Positions 504 through 56,384 of a stretch of 64,000 nucleotides of DNA are shown here, piece by piece. The notes under the pieces are model-generated. The model was not told the origin of the DNA. It searched no databases and was given only the letters and a program-made list of their open reading frames with translations. Location of the stretch: positions 533,646 to 597,645 of the forward strand of contig JANXDH010000004.1 in the NCBI GenBank assembly GCA_025059745.1. The letters are read 5' to 3'. A program made the position numbers and the translations under genes. The first letter of the stretch is position 1; every line of letters begins with the position of its first letter. Source of the stretch: Aigarchaeota archaeon (GTDB lineage: Archaea > Thermoproteota > Nitrososphaeria_A > Caldarchaeales > Calditenuaceae).

Positions 504-1172
504 TTAGCCACCCTCCGGCCTCTTTATGCCCAGTTGTTCTAGTATCCTGTTCACCTCATCATCTGTCAAACGCGATACGTCCACTGAACCCCTCATCCAC
601 GGGTGAGGTATACAGTGGTACCGGTAGAGACCTGGTGAGACGAAGGTGTACTTGTACTGCACCCCCTTCCCGAACAACCCTGAGTCGAACCTAAAATTAT
701 CATCGGTCACGGTGTGCGCTATATCGAGATCCTCGTTGTTGGTCCAAACGACGGTGTTGTTCACCTTTAGAACGACTCTGATATCTCTGGGAACGTAACT
801 GTCCGGTTGATTGGGGTTCCAAGACCCCGGGATTATGCTCACGTAGACTATTACGGGTGACTCGGCCGCGGGGGGCGGAGGGGGAGTGAGGAGGGTGAAG
901 GGGCCGTATCCCGTGATGGCGGAGTAGGTGAGGCCACCGAGGGAGACCGCCACGACAGCGCCGATTACCGCGACGTACTTGAACTCGAGGCTAGGGAGGC
1001 CACCTTTGAAGAGACCCCCAGAGAAGAGCATTGCACCGAATAGGACTACCAGTATCGACAGGGCCTGGAGCCCCTCCTCAAATGTCTTGGAGACTCCCGC
1101 ATAGGTCAGGAATACGCCCCCAGCCCCTATGAAGATGAGGAGAGCACCGAGCAGCGTCTGATTCTTGTCCAA
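504..1172 (-). CDS. membrane-anchored type-1 (blue) copper protein, sulfocyanin/plastocyanin-like cupredoxin
   Basis: N-terminal hydrophobic helices, a Pro-rich linker (TPPPPPAAESP), and a C-terminal cupredoxin domain with H...C-x2-H-x2-M ligands (YRYHCIPHPWM). Confidence 0.75.
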   Translation of the reverse strand: MDKNQTLLGALLIFIGAGGVFLTYAGVSKTFEEGLQALSILVVLFGAMLFSGGLFKGGLPSLEFKYVAVIGAVVAVSLGGLTYSAITGYGPFTLLTPPPPPAAESPVIVYVSIIPGSWNPNQPDSYVPRDIRVVLKVNNTVVWTNNEDLDIAHTVTDDNFRFDSGLFGKGVQYKYTFVSPGLYRYHCIPHPWMRGSVDVSRLTDDEVNRILEQLGIKRPEGG

Positions 1173-15283: not shown

Positions 15284-15661
15284 ATGCGTTACGTCAGGGC
15301 TAGGGACTTGGAGGAGAGAACCAAGCGGATGGTCGATGCCCTCGGTCTGAACCATATAGACCCCGAGAGGGTGATCTGCATCAGGAGTTACGGATCTCGG
15401 TCCAAGAGGACGCTCGCTAGGGTCCATGCACCCTCGAAGGCCGTACTCGCGGCCCTGAACATGAAGCCCGTCTACGTGATAGAGTTCATTGAAGAAGCAT
15501 GCAGGAGACTGACCGATGAGCAGCTGGAGGACGTTATTCTCCACGAACTGCTTCACATCCCCAAGTCGTTCAGTGGAGGCCTGCGTGGCCACGACGCTAG
15601 GTTCTCCTCGGAGTTAGAGAGTTACAGGAAGTTCCTCAGTAGAGCTCGCAGATACCGATGA
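15284..15661 (+). CDS. small predicted zinc metallopeptidase (HExxH; SprT/WLM-like minimal domain)
   Basis: HELLH motif in a 125-aa protein. The 3' end overlaps the convergent cyclase gene by 26 bp. Confidence 0.45.
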   Translation: MRYVRARDLEERTKRMVDALGLNHIDPERVICIRSYGSRSKRTLARVHAPSKAVLAALNMKPVYVIEFIEEACRRLTDEQLEDVILHELLHIPKSFSGGLRGHDARFSSELESYRKFLSRARRYR

Positions 15662-17450: not shown

Positions 17451-18608
17451 CTAAGACGTTACGGAGTGGTGCCACCTCAGGATGTACTCCGGTAACTTCA
17501 GTCCCCTCTCCTGTAGTTTGTAGACCAGTAGGAGCGGTATGGGGCTGGAGGCGAACGCGGCCTTAAGATAGAAGTCATTGGGACCACCATCGAAGGAGTT
17601 GGATGGTATGTAGTACGAATAGTCCGAAAGGGCCTCTATCGTTGATCCCTTGGTACCGACTATTGATGCGACGACGCCCCCCATCTTCTTGAAGTTCTTA
17701 CACCACGCGGCAACGACCTCTATCTCTCCGCTCTGAGATATGACCAATAAGAGATCTCCAGCCCTCGGTGAGGGCGTGCTCGCGTCCCCTGCGACATAGA
17801 CCTGGTCCCCTATGGCCCTCTTCACGTGTCCCAACCTCACTGCGGTCATTCTGGCTACCTCCCTGCTGCTCCCTAAACCGGCAAGGAAGCAGACGTGCCT
17901 TTTCTCGAGCATATCGACGACGGTCTTCATGAAGTCCGATCTCACGACGTCCTCCACCACCTTCGTCACCTCCGAGGTGAAAGACGCTATGTACTCACGG
18001 ATCTGACTGGCCGGCGCGTCCCTGTTCAAGGTCTCGGCCAACCCATAGAGGAACAGGAGACCTCCGAGAATGAAGACGTCCTCTAATATACCAACTGATC
18101 TGAACTCGACGGTATCGATCTTGTCTTCACTGAGCTCCCTCCCCTTCAGGACCATGAGTGTGCCGTACTTGTAACCGAGTTTACCTAGCGGAGACTCCGG
18201 GTCACTCGTTATCACGTCTATCTTATGGTCCTTATAGTTCTCGGACTTGGCGATCAATAACGCGAGCTTTTGAGCGTCGATCAGCGGTAGGAGAGACTTC
18301 CCGCTACCGGAGAGTATTAGGAGCGAGATCTGCCCGAATCGTCTCCTCAACGTGGGCGCGGCCTCGTCTATATGCCTCGCGGGGAAGCCTATGTCACCCC
18401 TATCGATGACCACCTTACCGTTCTTCATCTTAGCTAGCTCGCTACAGAATATGCTCAGGGCACCCTTCGTCCTCCCCTCAGCGCTTGGTACTATAACGCC
18501 GGAACTCCTGATATCGGTATAGATGTCCTCGGTCGCCTTGTTGTCCAGTTCGTACAGATTGTTTACGATTTTGTTGATGAAACCAATCGAGGCGGAAATT
18601 TCACCCAT
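17451..18608 (-). CDS. double SIS-domain sugar-phosphate isomerase/deaminase (GlmS-C / AgaS / PGI-PMI-like)
   Basis: The C-terminal half matches the SIS/6-phospho-3-hexuloisomerase pattern (GLGSSREVARMTAVRLGH..DLLLVISQSGEIEVV..). The N-terminal half carries a second SIS-like core (ISLLILSGSGKS...VITSDPESPLGKLG). 385 aa. Confidence 0.6.
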   Translation of the reverse strand: MGEISASIGFINKIVNNLYELDNKATEDIYTDIRSSGVIVPSAEGRTKGALSIFCSELAKMKNGKVVIDRGDIGFPARHIDEAAPTLRRRFGQISLLILSGSGKSLLPLIDAQKLALLIAKSENYKDHKIDVITSDPESPLGKLGYKYGTLMVLKGRELSEDKIDTVEFRSVGILEDVFILGGLLFLYGLAETLNRDAPASQIREYIASFTSEVTKVVEDVVRSDFMKTVVDMLEKRHVCFLAGLGSSREVARMTAVRLGHVKRAIGDQVYVAGDASTPSPRAGDLLLVISQSGEIEVVAAWCKNFKKMGGVVASIVGTKGSTIEALSDYSYYIPSNSFDGGPNDFYLKAAFASSPIPLLLVYKLQERGLKLPEYILRWHHSVTS

Positions 18609-18664
18609 CCTAAGTTCACCTCTCTCTCCCTGAATAAAAGTATTAACCCATTAACATGGGTTTT

Positions 18665-19420
18665 TCATAGGTCCTCCCATTTCACGTATCTACGGGCCAA
18701 CAACCCCTCTACCACAACGAACCCAAGCAAGCCGGCTATTATATAGAGCAGTTCCACCTCACCTATCTCGCTCAGACTGAAGGACATCTGAATTATCCTC
18801 GCACAAACGTAAGTTGGAGTCAGGAAGGCCAGCTGTGCTATCTGGGGCGGGAGCAACTCGTGCGGGTAGAAGACCGGTGGTAGAACTGTCAGTAGTGCGG
18901 TGATCATGGGAGAGTAGGTCCATAGGTCCTTCAGCTCCTTTGCCCTGCTACCGATTATGAAACCCCACACCGATATGGTGATCCACAGCAATATCACGCA
19001 CCCCCCTATCACCAATAGATTGAACACCGTGACGGGGACGACCTGTGAGATCAAGAACAAGATCATTACCAGTGCAGGTACCGTAATAATCAGGTTGCCG
19101 AGAGCGATACCGAAGTAGTAAGGTAGAGGGCCACTCGGCGACGCAACGAAGACGTCCTGGAGCCTCAAGAGGACGCGCATGTGAGCTATGTCCGTCTCCA
19201 CTACTATGGTCGACGCGACCGTGATTGATATGAGGCCGCCTATCAGGGCATACGGCATGATAATGCTGCCCACGTAAACATACGCGAAGAAGATTATGGT
19301 AAATGGAGTGATGAGGTAGTTGAGGGCCCAGATGGGTTGCCTCTTGAACGGGATCAGGTTCGTGAGGTACGCTATCAGGAACGACCTCCACAACCCCATG
19401 AGAAGGCGCCTACCCCTCAT
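18665..19420 (-). CDS. ABC-2 type exporter permease
   Basis: Six predicted TM segments and ABC-2 family topology. Start overlaps the ATPase stop (TAATG). Confidence 0.75.
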   Translation of the reverse strand: MRGRRLLMGLWRSFLIAYLTNLIPFKRQPIWALNYLITPFTIIFFAYVYVGSIIMPYALIGGLISITVASTIVVETDIAHMRVLLRLQDVFVASPSGPLPYYFGIALGNLIITVPALVMILFLISQVVPVTVFNLLVIGGCVILLWITISVWGFIIGSRAKELKDLWTYSPMITALLTVLPPVFYPHELLPPQIAQLAFLTPTYVCARIIQMSFSLSEIGEVELLYIIAGLLGFVVVEGLLARRYVKWEDL

Positions 19421-20325
19421 TACTCAGCCCTGTTTACTACCTCGAGGAAGACGTCCTCCAGAGTGAGAGGAGATATGGTGGCTTTTGCTCCGTTACTTAC
19501 AGCTATCTCCGCCAACTCCCTCGCACCCCTCAGGTCGGTATAGACCCTCACAATCGAGCCCAGTACGATACAACGCCCGTAACCCCTGACAAGACTCAGG
19601 TCTAGACGTGACGTCTCGAGGTCAACCCTCATTTTCTTCTCGATCCTAGCCTTCAACTCTTGAACTGAAAAGGACGCTAGGACCCTTCCGGCCTCCAAAA
19701 TGGCTACGCTATCCGAGAGGACCTCAGCCTCTTCCATATCGTGGGTCGTCAATAGGACGGTCCTACCCTCACGAACAGACTTCCTAACGACCTCCCACAC
19801 TCTGTGCTTGCTAACAGGATCTAGACCTATCGTAGGTTCATCGAGGAAGAGTAGATCGGCCTCGGACGCCAACGCCATCCCGACAAGCACGCGCCTCCTC
19901 AAGCCGCCTGAGAGGTTGGAGGCTGGAACGTTCATGTAATCTGAGAGTTCCAGGTCTTTTAAGTAGCTCCTCGCCCGCTCCCTCGCCTCACTACGTCCTA
20001 TCCCCCGTATGTTCAGGTAATAGTAGACGTGTTCCCACGGCGTGCAGAGGTGCAGGGGATGTGACTCCTGGGGCACAACGGCCACCCTCTCCCTAACCAT
20101 CTTAGCCTCCCTCTCAACGTCATATCCCAATACCCTTAACTCACCCTTGGTCTTTCTGAGCTGTGTGGCCGCTATCCTCACGAAGGTCGTCTTCCCCGCT
20201 CCATTTCTACCCAGCAAGGAGACTACCTGTCCCCTCATGACCTTCAAGGAGAAGTCCTCAAGTGCCCATCTGAGACCGTCGTAGGTCTTATAAAGTCTTG
20301 TCGCCTCTATGGCGATCTCACTCAT
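19420..20325 (-). CDS. ABC transporter ATP-binding protein (ABC-2/DrrA-like)
   Basis: Walker A LLGRNGAGKTT, ABC signature LSGGLRRRV, and Walker B LLFLDEPT. ATGA overlap with the upstream GcvH/TusA gene. Confidence 0.9.
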   Translation of the reverse strand: MSEIAIEATRLYKTYDGLRWALEDFSLKVMRGQVVSLLGRNGAGKTTFVRIAATQLRKTKGELRVLGYDVEREAKMVRERVAVVPQESHPLHLCTPWEHVYYYLNIRGIGRSEARERARSYLKDLELSDYMNVPASNLSGGLRRRVLVGMALASEADLLFLDEPTIGLDPVSKHRVWEVVRKSVREGRTVLLTTHDMEEAEVLSDSVAILEAGRVLASFSVQELKARIEKKMRVDLETSRLDLSLVRGYGRCIVLGSIVRVYTDLRGARELAEIAVSNGAKATISPLTLEDVFLEVVNRAE

Positions 20326-20999
20326 GTCTTCTTTATGAGGACGTGTGCCAACTTCTGTTCGATTCTAAAATCGAGCACAACGTTCCCCGTAAATTCAGAC
20401 CACTGTCGTAACTGTTCATCTGAACCAGGGCTGTATTCTGCGACCACGTGGACAACCTCTCCTGGAGGTATAGAATTTATCATATCAGAGAGTACCATCA
20501 GTACCTGAGCGCAATCTACGCCTATCGCGGCGTAGACGTGATCCGGTACGTGATCGAAGCACATCAAACCTCTCCTCTTTGAGTCCTCAGCGACCCTATC
20601 AGATATCTCATCCCATTTTTGGAGGGAGCTGATTGAGCCTCTATCCAGTACCTCCGCCTCATAGATCCACCCGTCCTCGTAGTCCCCTATTTGTAAACGA
20701 TGTGGGTTATCCGACACGCCTTCATTGACCCTCAATATCCTGAGTCCTATAGGTGAGTGCACGTTACCGAGAAATTTGCGCCCTTCAATCATGAACAACA
20801 CCCCCTCGGGTTCTATGACCGTCCCCTCCCCCTTCAGCTTGATCCTTCTGATCTTGCCAAAGAGGGCCTGCGTGATAGGGAGTAGTCCTAAGCGAGAGAT
20901 AGAACCGTCCCTTACCTCGAACCACAAGTTACGCTCATAACTGTAGAGAAGATCTTCCCTATACTTACATCCTTGGATCACGTTAGCCCCTGCAGACAT
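20322..20999 (-). CDS. fusion protein: GcvH-like (lipoyl-domain fold) N-terminal domain + TusA-like sulfur-carrier C-terminal domain
   Basis: The N-terminal ~125 aa align with glycine-cleavage H protein, including a Lys at the lipoyl-lysine position (MIEGRKF vs AESVKAAS) and the GWI[FY] C-terminal motif. The C-terminal ~75 aa align with TusA (IGVDCAQV vs LGLRCPEP, PGEVV, LIKK). Confidence 0.6.
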   Translation of the reverse strand: MSAGANVIQGCKYREDLLYSYERNLWFEVRDGSISRLGLLPITQALFGKIRRIKLKGEGTVIEPEGVLFMIEGRKFLGNVHSPIGLRILRVNEGVSDNPHRLQIGDYEDGWIYEAEVLDRGSISSLQKWDEISDRVAEDSKRRGLMCFDHVPDHVYAAIGVDCAQVLMVLSDMINSIPPGEVVHVVAEYSPGSDEQLRQWSEFTGNVVLDFRIEQKLAHVLIKKT

Positions 21000-21057
21000 C
21001 CAACTGACATCATCTGTTATGCGGAGAAATAAAAAGGTAAAAAAGCAGGCCTGTAAA

Positions 21058-21900
21058 TTAACGCTCTATCGGTAGGCCCACCACGTTGCCCCACTCGGAC
21101 CAACTACCGTCATAGTTCCGTACTTTCGGATACTTCAACAGATACTTCAGTACGAACCAAGTCACGGATGACCTCTCACCTATTCGACAGTAGGTGATGA
21201 CCTCCTTATCGGGCGTTATCCCTAAAGACTCATAGAGCCTCCTCAGCTCCTCAACTGACTTGAAGGTCCCGTCCTCGTTTATGGCCTTTGCCCACGGTAC
21301 GTTCACGGCACCCGGGATGTGGCCACCCCTCTGCGCGTGTTCAGTCGGATACTCCGGTGGCGCTAAAATTTTACCAGCGTACTCGTCAGGAGATCGTACG
21401 TCAACCAAGCACACGTTCGTACTCCCCAGTCTAGATCTTACGTCGGGTAATAGTATTCTATACTCGTAGTTGACCCTCGTGACTTTGTACCTAGTCTGCT
21501 TATTACTCGGTACGTCTTTCACTAACGGCCTCTCCTCCTCGATCCACTTTCTCCTACCCCCGTCCATCAGGCTCACCCTCTTGTGGTCGTATAGCTTGAA
21601 GACCCAGAACGCGAACGAAGCGAACCAGTTGTTGAAGTCGCCGTAGAGCACAACCCACGTCTCATTCGATATCCCGTTCCTCTCCATTAACTTCTCGAAA
21701 CCCTCCTTGCTGACGATATCCCTCTCGAGCTCATCGTTTATATCCCTCTTCCAATCTATGAGCGTAGCGCCTTCTATGTGACCTTGGTGATAGGCCGCCG
21801 TGGGTTCGTAATCGACCTCCACCACCCTTACGTTATCAGCCTTTCTGTTGTTCCAAACCCAGTCTGTCGTCACTAAAGGAGGTGATTCTTCGGTAGACAT
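21058..21900 (-). CDS. thiosulfate sulfurtransferase (tandem rhodanese domains)
   Basis: Two rhodanese domains. Catalytic loop CRIGERSS (CRxGxR, TST-type). 280 aa. Confidence 0.85.
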   Translation of the reverse strand: MSTEESPPLVTTDWVWNNRKADNVRVVEVDYEPTAAYHQGHIEGATLIDWKRDINDELERDIVSKEGFEKLMERNGISNETWVVLYGDFNNWFASFAFWVFKLYDHKRVSLMDGGRRKWIEEERPLVKDVPSNKQTRYKVTRVNYEYRILLPDVRSRLGSTNVCLVDVRSPDEYAGKILAPPEYPTEHAQRGGHIPGAVNVPWAKAINEDGTFKSVEELRRLYESLGITPDKEVITYCRIGERSSVTWFVLKYLLKYPKVRNYDGSWSEWGNVVGLPIER

Positions 21901-22013
21901 CAGCGATCCAATATCTTAGGTTATTATTATATTATTATATCTAACATATTATTGAGTTATATGTCCATGGATGTTTGAAACGATCGATTAACTATTTTAT
22001 GTAGTTAAAAACG

Positions 22014-22024
22014 CTTTTATACTA
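22014..22024 (+). promoter_or_regulatory. TATA box (cttttatacta) in a very A/T-rich divergent intergenic region
   Basis: ~37 nt upstream of the ATG at 22056. The region 21901-22055 is ~28% GC, versus mid-50s for the window. Confidence 0.4.
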
Positions 22025-22055
22025 TAAGTAAGCCATATATACTGAGGAAACGAGA

Positions 22056-23702
22056 ATGAGCAGTTTAGAATTTGACGGAGTAATTATAGGTGCAGGACAC
22101 AACGCCTTGGTCTTGGCCGGGTACATGGCTAAGTCGGGTCTGAAAGTGGCCCTGATCGAGAGGAACGTCACGATCGGCGGAGGATGCGGTACCTACATGC
22201 ATCCGGAGTATCCGGGGTTCCTTCACGAACTCCACTCCCAATTCCACAGGAACATTCCGAATCTACCGTGGTACAGGGACCTAGAGCTCTCAAACTACGG
22301 CCTTGACTACATATATCCACAGGCGAACAACGGGACGCCACTCAGCAGCGGTAAGAACATCGTAGTACACGCTAACCCCGACGTCTCCTACAAGTCCATC
22401 GAGAGGATCTCCAAGAAGGACGCCGACTCCTATTACAAGGTCTACCACAAGTACCAGGAGATGGGCAGGAAGATATGGTTCGTCCGCGATTACTCGCCCC
22501 CACTCCCTCCGGATGAAGAGGCTCGACTCCTAGAGAAGAGCGAGATGGGGCGCGAGTTCCTCCAGATCAACAAGAGGAGCGCTTACGACATCGTCATGGA
22601 TCTATTCGAGTCCGTGGAGATGCGCACGTTCTACCTCTTCCTCTACTCTATCAGAGGATATCTACCATCGCCCGAGAGCAAGAACACAGGTTTCGCTGCA
22701 GTCGCCATGACTTATCTGGGAAACAAGGCCATGTTACCGCGAGGAGGCTCAAGGATGCTCACCAACGCCCTGAGCAAGGTTGTACTCACGCACGGGGGGA
22801 TGATATTCGAGAACCACGAGGTCTCGAGGATAATCACGAAAAACGGGACTGCGATCGGTGTGGAGACCACTAACGGGAGGAAGTTCATGGCGAAGAAGTT
22901 CGTGGTGAGCAGCGTGGATCCGACCCAGACGTTCCTAAGGTTCATAGATGACGGACACCTCGGGAGCGACTTCTTGAAGAAGGTGAGGAACTACAAGTAC
23001 GGTGCATCGGCTAGGAGCTTCGGCGTCCTTTTCACTCTACACGCTGGAATCCACCAGCCCCCACGTTACGCATCGGAGAAGTGGGATCCGATGATCAACG
23101 AGGTCTTCAACACGTGCATAGGCTATGAGACGCCCGAGTCGATAATCAAGCACATTCATGAGACGATGGAGGGGATCGTACCCTCAGAGATAGGACTCCA
23201 GTGTGCTGTTCCGACACTCTTTGATCCAACGAGGGCACCTAAGGGTAAGCACGTGCTCCTCGCGTGGCAGTTCGCTCCGTATCATATAAAGGGTCACGGG
23301 CCAGAGAAGTGGGACGAGATAAAGTACTCGTATCTCGAGAAGGTCTTAGACAGGTGGGCCGATTACGCACCGAACCTCAGGAAGTCCTCGGGCAACATCA
23401 TATACATGTTCCCGCAGACCCCGCCTGATACGGAGAGGCACCTCATAAACATGAGGGAGGGAGACTTTCACGTGGGCGCCCTGATACCAGAGCAACTCGT
23501 GTACAACAGGCCCTTCCCGGAGGTCTCAAACTACCGCACACCGATAAAGAACCTCTACCTCACAGGAGCACCAACCCACCCAACCGGCAACATAACTGGA
23601 GCACCGGGCTACAATACCGCTCGAGTGATCGCGCAAGACCTCGGGATTAATCTCTGGTGGAATCCACCAGATCCGAGGAGGGAGTGGGCCTCACTAGAGT
23701 GA
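22056..23702 (+). CDS. FAD-dependent oxidoreductase, phytoene desaturase (CrtI)-related family
   Basis: GVIIGAGHNALVLAGYMAKSG..ALIE dinucleotide-binding motif and CrtI-like length (548 aa). Confidence 0.65.
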   Translation: MSSLEFDGVIIGAGHNALVLAGYMAKSGLKVALIERNVTIGGGCGTYMHPEYPGFLHELHSQFHRNIPNLPWYRDLELSNYGLDYIYPQANNGTPLSSGKNIVVHANPDVSYKSIERISKKDADSYYKVYHKYQEMGRKIWFVRDYSPPLPPDEEARLLEKSEMGREFLQINKRSAYDIVMDLFESVEMRTFYLFLYSIRGYLPSPESKNTGFAAVAMTYLGNKAMLPRGGSRMLTNALSKVVLTHGGMIFENHEVSRIITKNGTAIGVETTNGRKFMAKKFVVSSVDPTQTFLRFIDDGHLGSDFLKKVRNYKYGASARSFGVLFTLHAGIHQPPRYASEKWDPMINEVFNTCIGYETPESIIKHIHETMEGIVPSEIGLQCAVPTLFDPTRAPKGKHVLLAWQFAPYHIKGHGPEKWDEIKYSYLEKVLDRWADYAPNLRKSSGNIIYMFPQTPPDTERHLINMREGDFHVGALIPEQLVYNRPFPEVSNYRTPIKNLYLTGAPTHPTGNITGAPGYNTARVIAQDLGINLWWNPPDPRREWASLE

Positions 23703-33457: not shown

Positions 33458-34456
33458 ATGGCAGGCGTTATCGAGACCGTCAATTTAGTCAAACGATTCG
33501 GTGATGTGGTGGCTGTCGACGACGTTAGCATAAGCGTTGAGGACGGTGAGCTCTTCGGTTTCCTCGGACCTAACGGGGCGGGGAAGACCACCACCATCAA
33601 TATACTCACCACCCTAATGCGTCCAACATCAGGTAGGGCTGTGGTGGGAGGTTACGACGTGGTAGAGAACCCCAACGAGGTGAGGAGGATCGTTGGGGTA
33701 GTGCCTCAGGAGTTGACGGTCGATGAGGATCTGACTGGATGGGAGAACCTGATGCTCCAAGGCGGGCTGTATCACCTGTCGAGCGCCGCTCGGAGGCAAA
33801 GGGCCGAGGAACTGCTCGAGCTCGTGGGCCTCTCAGACGCAAAACATAGGAGGGTGGAGACCTACTCGGGGGGCATGCAGAAGAGGTTGGAGCTGGCATG
33901 CGGACTTATGCATCGACCAAAAGTGTTGTTCCTCGATGAACCTACATTAGGGCTCGACGTCCATACGCGCTCGGCCATATGGGAGTACATAAGGAGGTTG
34001 AGGGACGAGCTGAACATAACTATATTCTTAACCACTCATTACCTTGAGGAGGCCGACGCGCTCTGCAACAGGGTGGCTATAATAGACAAGGGGAGGGTTA
34101 TGGTGACCGGTACGCCGAGCGAGCTGAAGGTGAGAGTAGGGGGTGACATAATAGAACTCGAGACGTTCAACGGTCACGAGGGTCTGGTCCACGCTCTGAA
34201 GGAGATAGACGGGGTGAAGAGGGTGATTAGCAGAGATAGGGCGTACCATCTGACCGTTGAGAGGGGAGAGGAGGTGTTGCCGACCATCCTGGAGGCGTTC
34301 GTCAGGTTGGGCGTCAAGGTAACAAAAGTCACGATGAAGAGGCCGACGTTGGACGAGGTATTCTTAGAATACACTGGTAGGCAGCTGAGACAGGAGAGCT
34401 CGGACTGGGAGGACAAACTCAAGAGCAGGTTCACCATCAGGAGGATTAGATCTTGA
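33458..34456 (+). CDS. ABC transporter ATP-binding protein (ABC-2/DrrA-like)
   Basis: Walker A FLGPNGAGKTT, signature YSGGMQKRL, Walker B LFLDEPT. 332 aa. Confidence 0.9.
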   Translation: MAGVIETVNLVKRFGDVVAVDDVSISVEDGELFGFLGPNGAGKTTTINILTTLMRPTSGRAVVGGYDVVENPNEVRRIVGVVPQELTVDEDLTGWENLMLQGGLYHLSSAARRQRAEELLELVGLSDAKHRRVETYSGGMQKRLELACGLMHRPKVLFLDEPTLGLDVHTRSAIWEYIRRLRDELNITIFLTTHYLEEADALCNRVAIIDKGRVMVTGTPSELKVRVGGDIIELETFNGHEGLVHALKEIDGVKRVISRDRAYHLTVERGEEVLPTILEAFVRLGVKVTKVTMKRPTLDEVFLEYTGRQLRQESSDWEDKLKSRFTIRRIRS

Positions 34457-34493
34457 AGACGGCATATGGTCGTCTAGCGGGTGAGGCAGTCTC

Positions 34494-35351
34494 ATGAGTA
34501 CTCGGTTGCGTGACTTGATCTCTATCACCAAGCCAAAGATCGCGCTGTTGAACCTGATGACCTGCCTCACCTGCTACTTCGCTGGTAGCGGCCCTATCGT
34601 CGGCGCACTACCGCTCTTTATCTCGGGATACTTGGCCGCTGGTGGATCTGCAGTCCTCAACAATTATCTCGATAAGGAGTTGGACTCAAAGATGCGTAGG
34701 ACAGTCAAAAGACCAATTCCCTCTGGAAGGTTAAACCCCTTCCTTACGCTGGTCATGGGTTTACTGATGCTCATCGCATCTCTGGTGATCTCCGCCTACA
34801 CCCTTAACCCGTTAACGTCTCTACTCATGCTCTCAGGAGCCCTGTTCTACGTGATCGTCTACACCCTCGTCCTGAAGAGGAGGACGTATTGGAACATCGT
34901 CATAGGTGGGGCCGCGGGTAGCTTTCCACCATTGGCGGGGTGGGCCGCTGCCACAGGTACGGTAGCCGCAGTACCGGCGTTGCTCGCGGTCTTAATTTTC
35001 CTCTGGACCCCAGGACACTTCTGGGCGCTCTCGATAAGGGCTGTGGATGATTACAGGGCCGCGGGTATACCGATGCTCCCAGCTGTAGTGGGCGTTGAGA
35101 GGGCCTCTGAGGTCACCGGAGCCTCCAACCTCTCTATGCTGCCGCTGTGGGGACTCTGCACCTTCCTCGTTCCCAACCCCGTGCTATACCTCTTGGTCTC
35201 TGCCCCTCTGACATTCGTCCTCTCGTTCTACAGTCTGAGGCTGATGTCGTCACACGATCCGGGAATCGCTTGGAAGTTGTTCAAGTACTCGAGCCCATGG
35301 TTGATGTCGGTCTGTATAGCAGTCCTGGTATCCTATTTGATCGTCCCATGA
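34494..35351 (+). CDS. ctaB: protoheme IX farnesyltransferase (heme O synthase, UbiA family)
   Basis: ITKPKIALLNL N-terminus, UbiA motif NNYLDKELDSKMRRTVKRPIPSG, and ~8 TM segments. 285 aa. Confidence 0.85.
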   Translation: MSTRLRDLISITKPKIALLNLMTCLTCYFAGSGPIVGALPLFISGYLAAGGSAVLNNYLDKELDSKMRRTVKRPIPSGRLNPFLTLVMGLLMLIASLVISAYTLNPLTSLLMLSGALFYVIVYTLVLKRRTYWNIVIGGAAGSFPPLAGWAAATGTVAAVPALLAVLIFLWTPGHFWALSIRAVDDYRAAGIPMLPAVVGVERASEVTGASNLSMLPLWGLCTFLVPNPVLYLLVSAPLTFVLSFYSLRLMSSHDPGIAWKLFKYSSPWLMSVCIAVLVSYLIVP

Positions 35352-35412
35352 GATCTTTTGGTGCGTACATCAATCAAGGATTTATACGACGTCCACGACC
35401 GGGGTTGTCAGA

Positions 35413-36282
35413 TTGAGGGAAGTACTGAGCGAGATATCGGCCCTTACGATGAGGGAATTGAAGCACTGGTACAGGTCACCGTTCCTGCTCGTCATGACCT
35501 TCGTTCAGCCCGTGTTATGGATGGGCCTCTTCGGGAAGGCCATGAACTTGACTGGGATCCTGAGAGTCCCCGAGGAGGTCCTCGCGCAGCTTCCCCCTTA
35601 CATCTCATCAGAGATCTCAGCGGTCTTCAACAAGGTCATCTCCAACGTATTCGGTACTCCCCACGCTGACTACTTCACGTTCATGTCAGTGGGGATGCCC
35701 ATAATAGTCATACTCTTTACGTCCATGTCGAGCGGTATCTCGATCTCGTGGGACAGGCGTCTCGGGTTCCTAAACAAACTACTGGTCGCGCCTGTGAGGA
35801 GGGGGTCTATAATACTCGCAAAGGTCCTCTCAGGTGTGATAAGGTCAGGTGTTCAGGCCGCGTTGGTGTTATTGGTCGCTGTGGCCTTCGGCGCTAAGTA
35901 CGTTACGCCCCATCCGCTGATGATACTCGTCTTGATCGGTGCGATACTGCTGTTGGCCCTCGGTATCTCGTCACTCTTCATCCTTCTAGGCATCAGACTG
36001 AAGTCCTGGGAGTCCCAGATGACTCTCATGAACCTTCTTACCTTGCCCTTAATGTTCGCGAGCAACGTTTTCTATCCCCTCGATATAATGCCCCAGTGGT
36101 TGCAGGTCGTTGCGCAGCTCAACCCGCTGACTTACGCTGTCGACCTCCTACGCCAGCTTCTAGTCACTGGTTCATACGAGAACTACCTCTTCTTCGGAGA
36201 GCTTGGTGGACTCGTCCTGTTCACGTTATCTGTGACGTTCCTTAGCGTACTATTTGCTGAGAGGGGCTTGAGACGAGATTAG
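35413..36282 (+). CDS. ABC-2 type exporter permease
   Basis: ABC-2 membrane protein topology (6 TM). 289 aa. Likely partner of the ATPase at 33458. Confidence 0.75.
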   Translation: MREVLSEISALTMRELKHWYRSPFLLVMTFVQPVLWMGLFGKAMNLTGILRVPEEVLAQLPPYISSEISAVFNKVISNVFGTPHADYFTFMSVGMPIIVILFTSMSSGISISWDRRLGFLNKLLVAPVRRGSIILAKVLSGVIRSGVQAALVLLVAVAFGAKYVTPHPLMILVLIGAILLLALGISSLFILLGIRLKSWESQMTLMNLLTLPLMFASNVFYPLDIMPQWLQVVAQLNPLTYAVDLLRQLLVTGSYENYLFFGELGGLVLFTLSVTFLSVLFAERGLRRD

Positions 36283-44356: not shown

Positions 44357-44848
44357 CTAATGTCTATGCCCATGGTCTGAGGTATGGTCTGAGGGCGTGG
44401 CATCGAAGGACACCCTCTTCCCGCTCTCGAAGATGAGAGTGATGTGGAACTTCTTATAGTCGTGGACGTTTCCGAATATCATCACGTGGTACCCCTCACC
44501 CTCTACTCCGGTGAACCTCACCTCACTCATCGGTCCTATACAAACTCGATCTACCTTTACCATCTTCATCTCATACGGCCCTATCTCGGTCTTATGTAAC
44601 TCTGATTTAACCTTGGCACGTGACCCGGCACCCGTCACTCCTTCTACTTCCACACCAACCACGCAATCACCTGAGAGTCCGTGGTTATGGAGAACGAAGA
44701 AGATGCCCCCTGTATTAGTGCCCAACCTGATGAAGACGTCGTGCACCTCCGGCATGGATCCTACGGCTAGAACAGCAGCGAAAAGCGCGGCGACACCAAC
44801 GACTGCTGTGACTAACGCCAATAAAATTGGTTTGGATAGTTTAACCAT
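44357..44848 (-). CDS. periplasmic copper chaperone PCu(A)C (DUF461) with C-terminal His-rich tail
   Basis: Signal/anchor helix, GGIFFVLHNHG and GYHVMIFG (H(M)x10Mx21HxM-type Cu(I) site pattern), and C-terminal HTSDHGHRH. Confidence 0.65.
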   Translation of the reverse strand: MVKLSKPILLALVTAVVGVAALFAAVLAVGSMPEVHDVFIRLGTNTGGIFFVLHNHGLSGDCVVGVEVEGVTGAGSRAKVKSELHKTEIGPYEMKMVKVDRVCIGPMSEVRFTGVEGEGYHVMIFGNVHDYKKFHITLIFESGKRVSFDATPSDHTSDHGHRH

Positions 44849-54313: not shown

Positions 54314-55327
54314 GTGGACGCACCAAAGCTCGCGGTCTATGCGAGCCACTCGGCTCTACAGATAATCACCGGTGGAAGGAGAGAGGGGCTAAACGTCACG
54401 CTCTTTGGACCGGCGGAGAGGCTGACTTTCTATCGGAGGTTTAGGGCCCTGCAAATGAGTACGCTGGAGTGCACCAACGAGGACTGCATAGAGAAGTTAA
54501 ACTCTCTGAGTGACCACGTGGTCGTTCCAAACGGTAGTCTGGTGGAGTACGTCGGTGCAAAGAACGTCCTAGAGTTGAAGACGCCCCTCATCGGCTCGAA
54601 GGGTCTCTTGTGGATCGAGAGCCGCTGGAACCGGAAGATGAACCTCCTGATGGACGCCGGTCTACCGGTCCCCAAGTGGTTCTCGAGACCCGAGGAGGTA
54701 GACAGGTTGGTCATAGTGAAGTTGCCTGGCGCGAAGGGCGGGCGGGGATACATACTGACGGACTCACCCGGAGAGATAAACGAGTCCCTGAGGGAGTACG
54801 TGAGAAAGGGTATCATAAGCGACGCATCGGAGGCCTACATACAGGAGTACGTCGTCGGTATCCCGGTCTACGCCCACTACTTCATGAGTCCCATAATGAA
54901 CAGATTAGAGATAACGGGATTCGATGTGAGATACGAGACGAACGTCGACGGCCTCAGGCGTCTGAGCCACAGGAGAGCCGCTGAGATCAAACCTAGCTTC
55001 GTCGTAGGGGGCAACTTTCCGGTATATTTACGTGAGAGCCTCATAGAAACGTACATAGAGTGCGGTGAGAGGTTCGTCGAGGCCACCGGAAGGTATCTGG
55101 GGAAACCCGTCGTGGGCCCGTTCTGCCTCGAGTCCGTGGTGACCGAGGACCTGACGCCGGTCTTCTTCGAGTTCTCAGGGAGGATAGTCGCAGGTACCAA
55201 CGTATACATGGACGGGAGTCCTTACCTCGAGTTTTACTGGGGTGAGAGGATGAACGTGGGCCAGAGGATCGCGAGGGAGGTGAGGCTCGCGGCAGAACAG
55301 GGTCGCATCGATGAGGTGGTGACCTGA
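54314..55327 (+). CDS. purP: 5-formaminoimidazole-4-carboxamide ribonucleotide (FAICAR) synthetase PurP (ATP-grasp)
   Basis: Colinear with archaeal PurP: YASHSALQI, VVPNGSLVEYVG, GSKGLLWIESRW, KLPGAKGGRGY, YETNVDGL, YLRESL, VGPFCLE, AGTNVYMDGSPY, GQRIAREV. 337 aa. Confidence 0.85.
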   Translation: MDAPKLAVYASHSALQIITGGRREGLNVTLFGPAERLTFYRRFRALQMSTLECTNEDCIEKLNSLSDHVVVPNGSLVEYVGAKNVLELKTPLIGSKGLLWIESRWNRKMNLLMDAGLPVPKWFSRPEEVDRLVIVKLPGAKGGRGYILTDSPGEINESLREYVRKGIISDASEAYIQEYVVGIPVYAHYFMSPIMNRLEITGFDVRYETNVDGLRRLSHRRAAEIKPSFVVGGNFPVYLRESLIETYIECGERFVEATGRYLGKPVVGPFCLESVVTEDLTPVFFEFSGRIVAGTNVYMDGSPYLEFYWGERMNVGQRIAREVRLAAEQGRIDEVVT

Positions 55328-55454
55328 TCTGAGGACCATATCCATCTCATGCATCGCGAGCCACTCTGCCCTCGACGTATTCGATGGGGCGAAGGACGAG
55401 GGTTTCCGGACAATTGCGCTCTGCCAGGTCGGGAGGTCCAAGGTCTACCAGACA

Positions 55455-56384
55455 GTGAGAGAGACGGTGGACGAGTGTCTTGTATTACCGAATTACGCGA
55501 AGATCATCGAGGACGAGGTCCAGGCCGAGCTGTTGGGGAAGGACGCGGTGATAGTGCCCAATCGCAGCATGGCCGTCTATGTAGGATACGACAGGATAGA
55601 GGAGAGGCTTAGGGTCCCTGTATTCGGTAACAAGAAGATGCTGAGGTGGGAGGAGCGAGTCGGCGGGAAGAACTACTACGCGCTGCTCGACTCCGCAGGC
55701 ATTCGAAGGCCGAGGGTGATGAGGATCGAGGAGGTCGACGGTCCAGTGATATTGAAGGTCCAGGAGGCCATGAGGGAGCAGGAGAGGGCCTTCATAATAG
55801 CCTCTGACAGAGAGGACCTAGAGCGTAAGATAGAGTCTATGAGGTCTAGGAACCTCATCAGCGAGGAGACGCTGAGACGCTCGGTCATCGAGGAGCTCGT
55901 ACTTGGTGCACACTTCAACATAAATTACTTCTACAGCGTCGTCAGAAGGAGGTTGGAGATAGTAAGCATAGACCGGCGCATACAGTCTAACTTGGACGGA
56001 CTCCTCCACCTTCCAGCGAGGGATCAGCTCGACCTCCGGGCACCCGTCCGCATGATCGAGGTTGGTCACGTCCCCGTCAGCCTCAGGGAGAGCCTCTTGG
56101 AGGAGGCGATGGAGATCGGTGAGAGGTTTGTGGATGCCACACGCAGATTAGAACCGCCCGGCATAATAGGTCCCTTCACCCTACAGGTGATGGTGTCGCC
56201 CGATCTGAAGATGATCGTCTATGACGTCGCGACTAGGATAGGCGGTGGTACCAACGCGCAGATGGGGATAGGCGGACAGTACTCTAAGCTCTTCCTTAGA
56301 AAGGCGGTCTCTATGGGCCGTAGGATATGTATTGAGTTGAGGGAGGCTCTAGAGTCGAGCGCTTTGACCTCTGTTACAAGTTAA
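55455..56384 (+). CDS. purP: PurP paralog (FAICAR synthetase family); annotated from the first in-frame canonical start, which truncates the conserved N-terminus (possible frameshift/pseudogene)
   Basis: Same motif set as the upstream paralog (VVPNRSMAVYVG, GNKKMLRWEER, YESNLDGL, SLRESL, IGPFTLQ, GGTNAQMGIGGQY). Conserved IASHSALDVFDGAKDEGF is encoded in-frame upstream (55341-55454) without an ATG/GTG/TTG. Confidence 0.6.
   Translation: MRETVDECLVLPNYAKIIEDEVQAELLGKDAVIVPNRSMAVYVGYDRIEERLRVPVFGNKKMLRWEERVGGKNYYALLDSAGIRRPRVMRIEEVDGPVILKVQEAMREQERAFIIASDREDLERKIESMRSRNLISEETLRRSVIEELVLGAHFNINYFYSVVRRRLEIVSIDRRIQSNLDGLLHLPARDQLDLRAPVRMIEVGHVPVSLRESLLEEAMEIGERFVDATRRLEPPGIIGPFTLQVMVSPDLKMIVYDVATRIGGGTNAQMGIGGQYSKLFLRKAVSMGRRICIELREALESSALTSVTS

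What the first reader, a model, noticed from the sequence alone, without database searches (positions are those of the whole stretch)
18665..21900. Rhodanese, then GcvH/TusA fusion translationally coupled to an ABC-2 exporter
On the minus strand, a tandem-domain thiosulfate sulfurtransferase (CRIGER active site) is followed after 58 bp by the GcvH/TusA fusion. The fusion's TGA stop overlaps the ATG of an ABC ATPase (ATGA at 20322-20325), whose stop in turn overlaps the permease start (TAATG at 19418-19422). A sulfur-carrier protein co-translated with an ABC-2 exporter is an unusual pairing. A CrtI-like FAD oxidoreductase is transcribed divergently from a 155-bp, very A/T-rich promoter island.
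Basis: partly seen in the sequence, partly recalled or inferred. Interest (0 to 1): 0.55.

Follow-up and report, generated by a model that had tools for sequence, protein, structure and literature searches.

The report
Archaeal rhodanese–LbpA/TusA sulfur relay with exporter
This hot-spring archaeon carries a previously undescribed three-cysteine sulfur-carrier fusion protein that sits beside a rhodanese enzyme across many archaea, and only in this lineage and one sister clade is it also joined to a small ABC export pump, so the pump pairing is real but the rhodanese is the deeper partner.

Summary
All sequence observations hold.

The window comes from a Caldarchaeales ("Aigarchaeota") MAG.

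**The fusion protein.** It is real and folds confidently (pLDDT 94.8) into a GcvH-fold domain plus a TusA-fold domain. The N-domain is of the LbpA type, not a glycine-cleavage H protein. The lipoyl-lysine position is Arg in 96 of 128 relatives. Three cysteines (C11, C147, C163) are essentially invariant.

**Partners.**
- The family is archaeal, with more than 400 metagenome loci.
- Its one conserved neighbour is an orthologous CysA/SseA-type tandem rhodanese, present in 71 of 77 informative Thermoplasmata-like loci and in six Caldarchaeales genomes plus other lineages.
- The fusion–ABC ATPase–permease triad occurs only in the window and in six species of one Caldarchaeales clade. Their permeases group together, and the closest other homologues are stand-alone two-gene pumps.
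- No other sampled genome has rhodanese, fusion and ABC together.

**Best reading.** This is a lipoate-independent cysteine sulfur relay (rhodanese to fusion). A lineage-specific operon link to an ABC-2 exporter of unknown substrate has been added.

I class it as a new variant of a known kind, of moderate interest.

The parts
21058..21900 (-). Tandem-domain rhodanese (thiosulfate sulfurtransferase type), 280 aa, with active-site loop C238-R-I-G-E-R in the C-terminal domain.
   Evidence: Two PF00581 stretches. It scores 342 bits against Thermus rhodanese 1UAR and 311 bits against the mycobacterial thiosulfate sulfurtransferases 3AAX and 3HWI. CRIGER is at residues 238-243. Orthologues scoring 350-500 bits lie next to the fusion gene in most relatives.
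21000..21057 (-). 58-bp spacer between rhodanese and fusion. It holds T6 and T5 runs (a possible archaeal oligo-T terminator) and TTTTTATTT at -36..-28 from the fusion ATG (a possible TATA box).
   Evidence: Sequence. Clade A relatives have only 6-28-nt spacers without T runs. Clade B relatives have a conserved GGCTTAAAGC about 33 nt upstream of the fusion ATG. Any function of these signals is inferred.
20322..20999 (-). LbpA-like/TusA-like fusion protein, 225 aa. The GcvH-fold domain covers about residues 8-147 and the TusA-fold domain about 150-225. Conserved cysteine codons: C11 (20967-20969), C147 (20559-20561), C163 (20511-20513). The position equivalent to the lipoyl-lysine is K75 (20775-20777).
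   Evidence: Pfam matches. K75 aligns with the lipoyl-Lys of solved H proteins. AlphaFold2 gives pLDDT 94.8 and pTM 0.87. Foldseek gives H protein TM 0.87-0.90 and TusA 3lvj_C TM 0.86. In the 128-sequence alignment C11 is present in 126, C147 in 127 and C163 in 128 sequences, and column K75 is R in 96 and K in 28. The nearest stand-alone relatives are LbpA-type proteins.
20322..20325 (-). ATGA overlap of the fusion stop (TGA) with the ABC ATPase start (ATG).
   Evidence: The ATPase N-terminus MSEIAIEATRLYKTY is the normal length before Walker A at residue 39.
19420..20325 (-). ABC ATPase, 301 aa, DrrA/ABCA-class nucleotide-binding domain with a C-terminal extension of about 70 aa.
   Evidence: PF00005 at 97.6 bits. 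TIGR01188 drrA at 226.8 bits, below its cut-off of 312. The nucleotide-binding domains of ABCA lipid exporters are the best solved matches. Motifs found.
19418..19422 (-). TAATG overlap of the ATPase stop with the permease start.
   Evidence: ATPase and permease also overlap in all six clade B loci.
18665..19420 (-). ABC-2 type permease, 251 aa, with an N-terminal amphipathic helix plus six hydrophobic segments.
   Evidence: Weak PF01061 match. Homologues at 27-41% identity carry PF01061/PF12698. Hydropathy peaks. It groups with the clade B linked permeases (83% bootstrap). The clade has no conserved cysteine.
18645..18662 (-). Hairpin followed by a T-rich tail directly after the permease stop; a possible end of the transcription unit.
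   Evidence: Consensus scan. The number of such sites is no higher than in shuffled sequence, so this is weak evidence.
21901..22055 (.). 155-bp A/T-rich divergent intergenic region between the rhodanese and the CrtI-like gene. A TATA-like ATATAATAATATAATAATAA lies 21-40 nt upstream of the rhodanese ATG.
   Evidence: GC 0.28-0.32. Sequence.
22056..23702 (+). CrtI/CrtO-like FAD oxidoreductase, 548 aa. It is a neighbour only and is not conserved with the module.
   Evidence: Pfam and NCBIfam matches. It is absent from all related loci.
17451..18608 (-). 385-aa protein with a C-terminal SIS / 6-phospho-3-hexuloisomerase-like domain. In Caldarchaeales clade A it is the syntenic neighbour directly downstream of the fusion gene.
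   Evidence: 524-532 bits in L010-L014 and L021.

Best explanation
The core of the locus is a conserved archaeal two-gene sulfur-relay module.

**The module.** A CysA/SseA-type tandem rhodanese takes sulfane sulfur, most likely from thiosulfate or a persulfide, onto its Cys238. It passes the sulfur to the invariant Cys163 of the TusA-fold domain of the fusion protein.

The fusion's other half descends from LbpA, the GcvH-like carrier of the sHdr sulfur-oxidation pathway. It has given up the lipoyl-lysine (Lys and Arg are interchangeable there). It keeps LbpA's N-terminal cysteine (C11), and C147 lies where LbpA's C-terminal cysteine would be. Sulfur is therefore probably moved or resolved among three protein cysteines without lipoate, and then handed to an unidentified acceptor or released.

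**The exporter.** In this genome and in one Caldarchaeales sister clade, the fusion gene is the first gene of an operon with a two-gene ABC-2 (type V) exporter. Here the genes are translationally coupled through ATGA and TAATG overlaps. The exporter's substrate is unknown. The most likely link is co-regulated removal of a product or by-product of the relay, such as sulfite or a sulfane-sulfur species, rather than covalent hand-over of sulfur, because the linked permeases lack any conserved cysteine.

**Shown:** gene order, folds, residue conservation, neighbourhood conservation and the common origin of the linked transporters.

**Inferred:** direction of sulfur flow, the roles of C11 and C147, transcript boundaries and any transport substrate.
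For: **Folds.** AlphaFold2 gives pLDDT 94.8 and pTM 0.87. Foldseek matches H proteins at TM 0.87-0.90 and TusA (3lvj_C) at TM 0.86, rmsd 1.5 A, and also YeeD/TsuB.

**Residues.**
- C163 aligns with TusA Cys19, and K75 with the lipoyl-Lys.
- Across 128 family members C11 is present in 126, C147 in 127 and C163 in 128, while the lipoyl column is R in 96 and K in 28.
- K and R alternate even among close Caldarchaeales relatives.

**LbpA ancestry.**
- The top stand-alone matches to the N-domain profile share the GCxFPEDLLY N-terminus. Most carry an ESxK lipoyl motif and a cysteine near the C-terminus; the best-characterised group (P0275-P0279, P0095) ends GFGGC.
- One of them, P0275, lies in a complete Rhd-TusA-HdrC1B1A-hyp-HdrC2B2-LbpA-DsrE-LbpA-radical SAM-LplA cluster.
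- These features match the published definition of LbpA (PMC6067878).
- A physical TusA-LbpA interaction has been reported in Aquifex (PMC11094781 abstract).

**Rhodanese linkage.**
- It is co-directional and adjacent in the window, in six clade A genomes, and in L006, L023 and L024. In L020 (Thermoprotei) a rhodanese fragment lies about 540 nt upstream.
- It is convergent and within 30 nt in L008 and in 64 of 80 Thermoplasmata-like metagenome loci, and within 4 kb in 71 of 77 informative loci.
- No other gene family recurs in more than 13 of those 80 loci.
- On one Bathyarchaeia contig the order is Rhd-fusion-DsrE-TusA-cysteine desulfurase.

**ABC linkage.**
- The window and six clade B species carry fusion-ATPase-permease with overlaps or gaps of 6-41 nt.
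- Clade B has a conserved TATA-like motif upstream of the fusion gene.
- The linked permeases are monophyletic (83% bootstrap).
Against: - No biochemical data exist for any family member.
- The TusA CPxP motif is absent here (CAQV) and in most members; only 7 of 128 have CPET or CPGP. The Pfam TusA score is below its cut-off.
- The distances between the three cysteines could not be measured, because the tool does not return model coordinates.
- ABC linkage is missing from clade A and from every non-Caldarchaeales member.
- The closest other transporter homologues work as stand-alone pairs in unrelated contexts.
- The linked permeases have no conserved cysteine.
- The ATPase tree groups the window with clade B only weakly (33% by the rooted-clade bootstrap measure).
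- No other sulfur-metabolism gene lies in the 64-kb window.
Confidence: 0.55

Rival explanations
1. The exporter is a generic efflux pump with no functional tie to the sulfur carrier. Fusion-ATPase-permease is simply gene order inherited from a common Caldarchaeales ancestor, and the 4-nt overlaps reflect compact archaeal operons rather than a shared pathway.
For: - The nearest non-Caldarchaeales homologues are stand-alone ATPase-permease pairs beside unrelated genes.
- Clade A keeps rhodanese-fusion but has no ABC genes at the locus.
- None of 80 Thermoplasmata-like loci has the permease.
- The linked permeases have no conserved cysteine.
- TiaS is retained upstream in both the window and clade B, which shows the region is syntenic by descent.
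Against: - The triad stays contiguous while its flanks differ: rhodanese/SIS in the window against TiaS/TrmO in clade B.
- It does so across deep divergence (fusion 34-41% identity, permease about 38-40%).
- Clade B has a conserved promoter-like motif in front of the fusion gene, which makes it the first cistron of the operon.
Confidence: 0.4
2. The reading implied by the first reader: the fusion is a substrate-delivery subunit of the exporter. It hands a sulfur species to the ABC-2 pump for export, a mirror image of the TusA-like YeeD working with the YeeE thiosulfate importer.
For: - Translational coupling in the window.
- A conserved operon in seven species.
- The C-domain resembles YeeD/TsuB in the YeeE-YeeD complex structures.
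- Rhodanese turnover of thiosulfate yields sulfite, which must be removed (established rhodanese chemistry).
Against: - No cysteine is conserved in the permeases.
- Most family members have no transporter nearby.
- No literature precedent was found.
- The substrate is wholly unknown.
Confidence: 0.2
3. The three invariant cysteines bind a metal or an iron-sulfur cluster, or form a redox switch. The fusion would then be a sensor or regulator of the rhodanese and, here, of the pump, rather than a carrier of sulfur.
For: - Three near-invariant cysteines plus conserved H184 and H219.
- The high pTM suggests a fixed two-domain body.
- CPxP is lost in most members.
Against: - C163 sits exactly at the sulfur-binding position of TusA.
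- C11 matches LbpA's N-terminal cysteine and C147 lies where its C-terminal cysteine would be; these positions were proposed as sulfur-binding.
- The obligatory neighbour is a sulfurtransferase.
- H184 lies in the TusA-derived core strand region.
Confidence: 0.15
4. The fusion is a true lipoylated H protein or LbpA that serves glycine cleavage or an sHdr sulfur-oxidation complex encoded elsewhere in the genome.
For: - The window protein itself has Lys at the lipoyl position within an E-x-x-K hairpin.
- The N-domain is closest to LbpA proteins.
Against: - The position is Arg in 96 of 128 members, including all of clade A and half of clade B.
- NCBIfam GcvH scores are far below their cut-offs.
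- No gcvT/gcvP, shdr, lipoate ligase or LipS genes lie in the 64-kb window, nor near the 80 metagenome loci.
Confidence: 0.05

Closest known systems
[quoted passage not shown] 2018, PMC6067878)
   Same: - GcvH fold.
- N-terminal G-C-x-[FI]-P-[ED]-D-L-L-Y motif with a cysteine.
- A second cysteine at the end of the domain.
- Works in the company of rhodanese and TusA.
- LbpA proteins are the best stand-alone matches to the N-domain.
   Different: - The strictly conserved lipoyl-lysine of LbpA is replaced by Arg in 75% of this family.
- The domain is fused to a TusA-fold domain.
- No shdr, lipoate ligase or lipoyl synthase genes lie nearby.
TusA / DsrE-TusA / Rhd-TusA sulfur relays (E. coli TusA; Allochromatium Rhd_2599-TusA; Metallosphaera DsrE3A-TusA)
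   Same: - TusA fold, with the cysteine at the N-terminus of helix 1.
- Encoded beside a rhodanese, as in the documented Rhd-to-TusA transfers (PMC11094781).
   Different: - The CPxP motif is mostly lost.
- The partner is a tandem-domain CysA/SseA-type rhodanese rather than a single-domain one.
- The carrier is fused to an LbpA-like domain and has two additional invariant cysteines.
YeeE-YeeD (TsuA-TsuB) thiosulfate uptake system
   Same: A TusA-fold protein genetically and physically paired with a membrane transporter for a sulfur compound. YeeD appears among the structural matches.
   Different: - YeeE is a secondary-transporter-like importer with its own conserved cysteines.
- Here the partner is an ATP-driven ABC-2 exporter whose permease has no conserved cysteine.
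- The direction of transport and the substrate are unknown.
DrrAB/ABCA-type ABC-2 (type V) exporters
   Same: - Nucleotide-binding domain of the DrrA/ABCA class.
- A six-helix ABC2_membrane permease.
- Overlapping ATPase-permease genes.
- No binding-protein gene.
   Different: A sulfur-carrier gene precedes the pair in the same operon. The homologues most similar outside Caldarchaeales lack it.
Thermus thermophilus rhodanese 1UAR and mycobacterial CysA/SseA thiosulfate sulfurtransferases
   Same: Two rhodanese domains and the CRI[GA]ERS active-site loop, scoring 272-342 bits.
   Different: The archaeal orthologues are systematically encoded next to the fusion gene. That neighbourhood was not examined for the bacterial enzymes.

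Membership tests
TusA family (PF01206) | Two-layer alpha/beta TusA fold | tested here: met
   Foldseek gives TM 0.86 and rmsd 1.5 A to E. coli TusA 3lvj_C, and also matches 1dcj and 3hz7. The model has pLDDT 94.8.
TusA family (PF01206) | Sulfur-binding cysteine at the start of helix 1 (Cys19 of E. coli TusA) | tested here: met
   C163 aligns with it and is invariant in 128 of 128 relatives.
TusA family (PF01206) | CPxP motif around that cysteine | tested here: not met
   The window has C-A-Q-V. Only 7 of 128 family members have CPET or CPGP.
TusA family (PF01206) | Score above Pfam's gathering cut-off | tested here: not met
   20.3 bits against a cut-off of 28.6.
Glycine cleavage H protein (PF01597 / TIGR00527) | H-protein fold and Pfam score above the cut-off | tested here: met
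   52.8 bits against a cut-off of 22.2. TM 0.87-0.90 to solved H proteins.
Glycine cleavage H protein (PF01597 / TIGR00527) | Conserved lipoyl-lysine at the hairpin tip | tested here: not met
   K75 is present in the window protein, but the column is R in 96 and K in 28 sequences across the family, and K and R alternate among close relatives.
Glycine cleavage H protein (PF01597 / TIGR00527) | NCBIfam equivalog score, and a context with gcvT/gcvP | tested here: not met
   TIGR00527 scores 32.3 against 115.85. No gcvT or gcvP lies in the window.
LbpA (sHdr-associated lipoate-binding protein) | Two cysteines, near the N- and C-termini of the domain, that GcvH lacks | tested here: met
   C11 lies in the shared GCxFPxDLLY motif. 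C147 lies at the end of the domain, where LbpA has its GFGGC terminus (definition). Positional equivalence of C147 is by inspection only; the BLASTP alignment stops at residue 112.
LbpA (sHdr-associated lipoate-binding protein) | Strictly conserved lipoyl-lysine | tested here: not met
   The column is R in 96 and K in 28 of the 128 aligned members.
LbpA (sHdr-associated lipoate-binding protein) | Encoded in or next to shdr and lipoate-ligase gene clusters | tested here: not met
   None is present in the 64-kb window or recurs near the 80 related loci. By contrast, the genuine LbpA P0275 sits in such a cluster.
Tandem-domain rhodanese / thiosulfate sulfurtransferase | Two rhodanese domains with a CRxGxR active-site loop in the second | tested here: met
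   Two PF00581 stretches. C238-RIGER. 342 bits to 1UAR.
Tandem-domain rhodanese / thiosulfate sulfurtransferase | Thiosulfate:acceptor sulfurtransferase activity | not testable with these tools
   This needs an enzyme assay.
ABC-2 (type V) exporter | ABC nucleotide-binding domain with Walker A, signature and Walker B motifs, of the DrrA/ABCA class | tested here: met
   The DrrA subfamily score of 226.8 is below its cut-off of 312, so this is not a DrrA equivalog.
ABC-2 (type V) exporter | Six-helix ABC2_membrane permease, with no binding-protein gene | tested here: met
   Six hydropathy peaks. Homologues carry PF01061. The window protein's own Pfam score of 17.1 is below the 26.9 cut-off. There is no binding-protein gene in the operon.
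ABC-2 (type V) exporter | Export direction and substrate | not testable with these tools
   This needs transport assays.

The most novel reading that the evidence does not exclude
The LbpA-like/TusA-like three-cysteine fusion and its rhodanese would form a widespread, lipoate-independent archaeal sulfur-trafficking system that has not been described. In Caldarchaeales this carrier would dock onto an ABC-2 pump, giving the first ATP-driven exporter fed by a TusA-type sulfur carrier, for example to expel sulfite or excess sulfane sulfur.
Probability: 0.2. Interest if true: 0.75.

Novelty: new variant of a known kind. Interest (0 to 1): 0.55.

Why it matters
TusA, rhodaneses and LbpA are the known parts of cytoplasmic sulfur trafficking. 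How LbpA receives sulfur, and what its two extra cysteines do, is still open.

This family fuses an LbpA-type domain to a TusA-type domain. It drops the lipoyl-lysine, keeps every cysteine, and stays next to one specific rhodanese across Thermoproteota and Thermoplasmatota.

That makes it a natural "Rosetta stone" for the reported TusA-LbpA contact. It also offers a tractable system for testing the cysteines without the complication of lipoate.

It occurs mostly in archaea not known as sulfur oxidisers (peat and soil Thermoplasmata-like lineages, Methanomassiliicoccales, Bathyarchaeia, hot-spring Caldarchaeales). This hints at a housekeeping or detoxifying sulfur route that current annotation labels "hypothetical" or "TusA family".

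The exporter link, if functional, would be a new way of coupling sulfur carriers to membrane transport.

Tried and rejected
- **Word-indexed homologue search with the fusion alone.** It returned only the protein itself. The exhaustive representative search was needed to find relatives.
- **Locus scans with broad alignments A1 and A3.** Narrower alignments A2 and A4 worked.
- **Profile search of the large protein collection with A1.** It was limited by its candidate cap and gave few new members, but it surfaced the LbpA-type relatives.
- **Conserved cysteines in the fusion-linked permeases.** I looked for these as evidence of a covalent relay. There are none, and clade B permeases have no cysteines at all.
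- **Other conserved neighbours of the family.** None was found besides the rhodanese.
- **sHdr, lipoate-ligase, DsrE or glycine-cleavage genes in the rest of the window.** None is present.
- **ATPase tree.** It reproduces the window-plus-clade-B grouping only weakly.
- **Bacterial-type promoter and terminator scan.** It is uninformative for an archaeon and found no more sites than in shuffled sequence.
- **Literature searches.** Searches for a GcvH/LbpA-TusA fusion or a TusA/ABC-2 pairing found nothing relevant.
- **Distances between cysteines.** They could not be measured because model coordinates are not returned.

Full report
**1. Observation**

The ORF list and the minus-strand sequence confirm every coordinate in the finding.

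| Feature | Coordinates | Size |
|---|---|---|
| Rhodanese | 21058-21900 | 280 aa |
| Spacer | 21000-21057 | 58 bp |
| Fusion | 20322-20999 | 225 aa |
| ABC ATPase | 19420-20325 | 301 aa |
| Permease | 18665-19420 | 251 aa |
| A/T-rich divergent region | 21901-22055 | 155 bp |

- The fusion TGA and the ATPase ATG share ATGA at 20322-20325. The ATPase TAA and the permease ATG share TAATG at 19418-19422.
- The divergent region has GC 0.28-0.32 against about 0.53 in its surroundings. It lies in front of a CrtI/CrtO-like FAD oxidoreductase at 22056-23702.
- The rhodanese has two PF00581 stretches. The fusion matches GCV_H (E 4.6e-14) and weakly matches TusA (E 4.9e-4, below the cut-off). The ATPase is DrrA-like, and the permease is a weak ABC2_membrane match.
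- The exact protein is on record from an Aigarchaeota/Caldarchaeales MAG (GCA_033581295.1) and from a Logan assembly of a sequencing run. The locus is therefore reproducibly assembled.

**2. What the fusion protein is**

An exhaustive HMMER search found 404 relatives at E <= 0.001. About 35 of the representative clusters have the same full-length two-domain architecture of 215-245 aa.

An AlphaFold2 model built on 31 of them is very confident (pLDDT 94.8, pTM 0.87). Foldseek matches the N-terminal half to solved H proteins (TM 0.87-0.90). It matches the C-terminal half to E. coli TusA (TM 0.86, rmsd 1.5 A) and to YeeD/TsuB.

C163 aligns with the sulfur-binding Cys19 of TusA, and K75 aligns with the lipoyl-lysine of H proteins. 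In a 128-sequence alignment of the family:
- C11 is present in 126 sequences, C147 in 127 and C163 in 128.
- The lipoyl column is Arg in 96 and Lys in 28.
- Lys and Arg alternate even among close relatives. Clade A is all Arg, clade B is three Lys and three Arg, and the window has Lys.

Lipoylation is therefore not a property of the family.

The best stand-alone matches to the N-domain profile share the GCxFPEDLLY N-terminus. Most of them carry an ESxK lipoyl motif and a cysteine near the C-terminus. The best-characterised group is a set of 145-aa proteins ending GFGGC. One of these, P0275, is encoded in a complete Rhd-TusA-HdrC1B1A-hyp-HdrC2B2-LbpA-DsrE-LbpA-radical SAM-LplA cluster.

That is the published signature of LbpA: a conserved lysine plus two cysteines near the termini that GcvH lacks (PMC6067878). 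Canonical GcvH sequences score lower against the N-domain profile.

The fusion is therefore an LbpA-type domain joined to a TusA-type domain. It keeps LbpA's N-terminal cysteine. C147 lies where LbpA's C-terminal cysteine would be, though that equivalence rests on inspection only. It is no longer dependent on lipoate.

TusA and LbpA are reported to interact physically in Aquifex (PMC11094781). I found no paper describing such a fusion. Sources label these proteins "hypothetical" or "TusA family", or give a composite COG name.

Named members come from Caldarchaeales/Aigarchaeota, Thermoprotei, Bathyarchaeia, Thermoplasmata and Methanomassiliicoccales.

**3. Which neighbours are conserved**

Thirteen species-level genomes hold one copy each, twelve from Caldarchaeales/Nitrososphaerota-related lineages and one from Thermoprotei. 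I mapped the window's proteins onto these loci. Two arrangements appear.

| Group | Loci | Gene order | Missing |
|---|---|---|---|
| Clade A | L010-L014, L021 | rhodanese-fusion-SIS gene, with 6-28-nt gaps between rhodanese and fusion | ABC genes |
| Clade B | L003/L015, L016-L019, L022 | TiaS (divergent), then fusion-ATPase-permease, with 6-41-nt gaps and overlapping ATPase/permease genes | rhodanese |

The window is the only case that holds both arrangements: TiaS ... rhodanese-fusion-ATPase-permease-SIS.

Trees:
- In a tree of the fusion proteins, clades A and B each have 100% bootstrap support. The window branches on its own, weakly with clade A (60%). The outgroups have rhodanese-fusion.
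- In a permease tree, the window and clade B form one clade (83%). It is separate from the closest other homologues (Thermoplasmata, Marsarchaeota and others), whose contigs show stand-alone ATPase-permease pairs next to unrelated genes.
- The ATPase tree gives the same topology, with weak support.

The simplest history is an ancestral rhodanese-fusion pair that gained the ABC pair once in Caldarchaeales. Clade A later lost the ABC genes from the locus, and clade B lost the rhodanese. The window keeps the complete arrangement.

Beyond Caldarchaeales, the rhodanese stays close to the fusion gene:
- upstream and co-directional in L006 and L023;
- upstream and co-directional in L024, where DsrE, TusA and a cysteine desulfurase follow the fusion gene;
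- convergent in L008.

A metagenome scan found at least 414 relatives. Of the 80 loci fetched:
- 64 have an orthologous tandem rhodanese (350-400 bits) convergent within 30 nt, often with the 3' ends overlapping;
- 7 have it further away, within 4 kb;
- 6 have none despite at least 900 nt of downstream sequence;
- 3 are too short to tell;
- none has the permease.

Clustering all neighbouring ORFs showed no other family in more than 13 of the 80 loci. The conserved unit is thus the rhodanese-fusion pair, and it is kept together even where the two genes are not co-transcribed.

**4. The other parts**

- **Rhodanese.** It is closest to Thermus rhodanese 1UAR (342 bits) and to the mycobacterial CysA/SseA thiosulfate sulfurtransferases. 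It shares their CRI[GA]ERS loop, here C238.
- **ATPase.** It has intact Walker A, signature and Walker B motifs. It most resembles the nucleotide-binding domains of ABCA lipid exporters.
- **Permease.** It has an N-terminal amphipathic helix and six hydrophobic segments, and no solved relative detectable by sequence. No binding-protein gene is present. The linked permeases have no conserved cysteine, and clade B permeases have none at all.
- **Rest of the window.** It encodes housekeeping functions and a second, unrelated ABC-2 system. It has no sHdr, lipoate-ligase, DsrE or glycine-cleavage genes.

**5. Transcription units (inference)**

- Clade B loci share GGCTTAAAGC about 33 nt upstream of the fusion ATG. 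This is consistent with an archaeal TATA box and a near-leaderless fusion-ATPase-permease transcript.
- The window's 58-bp spacer has T6 and T5 runs, and TTTTTATTT at -36 to -28. From general knowledge, archaeal RNA polymerase terminates at oligo-T tracts. The rhodanese may therefore be partly or wholly a separate transcript here.
- In clade A the 6-28-nt spacers leave no room for that.
- A hairpin with a T-rich tail follows the permease, which is weak evidence.

**6. Mechanism**

The best-supported reading is a cysteine-based sulfur relay. Rhodanese Cys238 takes sulfane sulfur and passes it to Cys163 of the TusA-like domain. The LbpA-derived C11 and C147 then act as further carriers or as resolving thiols. 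This step replaces the lipoamide arm of true LbpA.

The conserved Lys/Arg at the former lipoyl position may simply supply a positive charge; that is speculation.

The exporter is an operon partner in one lineage. The absence of permease cysteines argues against covalent hand-over. It leaves two possibilities open: co-regulated export of a relay product or by-product, or no functional connection at all.

My estimates:
- about 0.6 that rhodanese and fusion form a sulfur relay;
- about 0.3 that the exporter is functionally tied to it;
- about 0.4 that the exporter is only a syntenic passenger.

**7. Verdict**

The sulfur-carrier/ABC-2 pairing is unusual, is conserved in relatives and appears unreported.
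- The pairing is lineage-restricted, and the exact three-part arrangement is unique to this genome among those sampled.
- The more important finding is the undescribed LbpA-like/TusA-like three-cysteine family and its near-obligatory rhodanese partner.
- It is a new variant of a known kind (sulfur-relay proteins), of moderate interest.

Noticed in passing
window 33458-36282 (+): A second ABC-2 system. Its ATPase has a DrrA1-3_C tail and its ABC2_membrane permease scores well. The two are separated by a UbiA-family prenyltransferase gene (34494-35351), an odd insertion into a transporter operon.
   Followed up: partly
window 17451-18608 (-): A 385-aa protein. The C-terminal part is SIS / 6-phospho-3-hexuloisomerase-like, and the N-terminal ~200 residues match no family. 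It directly follows the fusion gene in all six clade A genomes, and here it follows the permease.
   Followed up: partly
L024 1-2534 (Bathyarchaeia contig JBHIDC010000210.1): Rhodanese-fusion-DsrE-TusA-cysteine desulfurase, all on one strand. This is the richest sulfur-trafficking context seen for the family.
   Followed up: no
L029-L108 (Thermoplasmata-like metagenome loci): Fusion and rhodanese genes are convergent, and in many loci their 3' ends overlap. The pair is thus kept adjacent without being co-transcribed.
   Followed up: partly
L003, L016, L017, L022: about 33 nt upstream of the fusion ATG: A conserved GGCTTAAAGC (GGCTTAAAAC in L022), with CTCTTAAATC at a similar position in L018. 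It is probably the TATA box of the fusion-ABC operon in clade B.
   Followed up: no
L012 6682-9668: About 3 kb is inserted between the fusion gene and the SIS gene. It contains a 233-aa minus-strand ORF of unknown family, and may be a mobile element.
   Followed up: no
window 54314-56384 (+): Two tandem paralogues with DUF1246/DUF1297 domains (PurP-like ATP-grasp enzymes).
   Followed up: no
window 15284-15661 (+): A 125-aa ORF matching PF18894 (PhageMetallopep). It is conserved in the same place in the second assembly of this locus.
   Followed up: no
window 504-1172 (-) and 44357-44848 (-): A plastocyanin/azurin-like copper protein and a PCu(A)C copper chaperone. These hint at aerobic respiration in this organism.
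   Followed up: no
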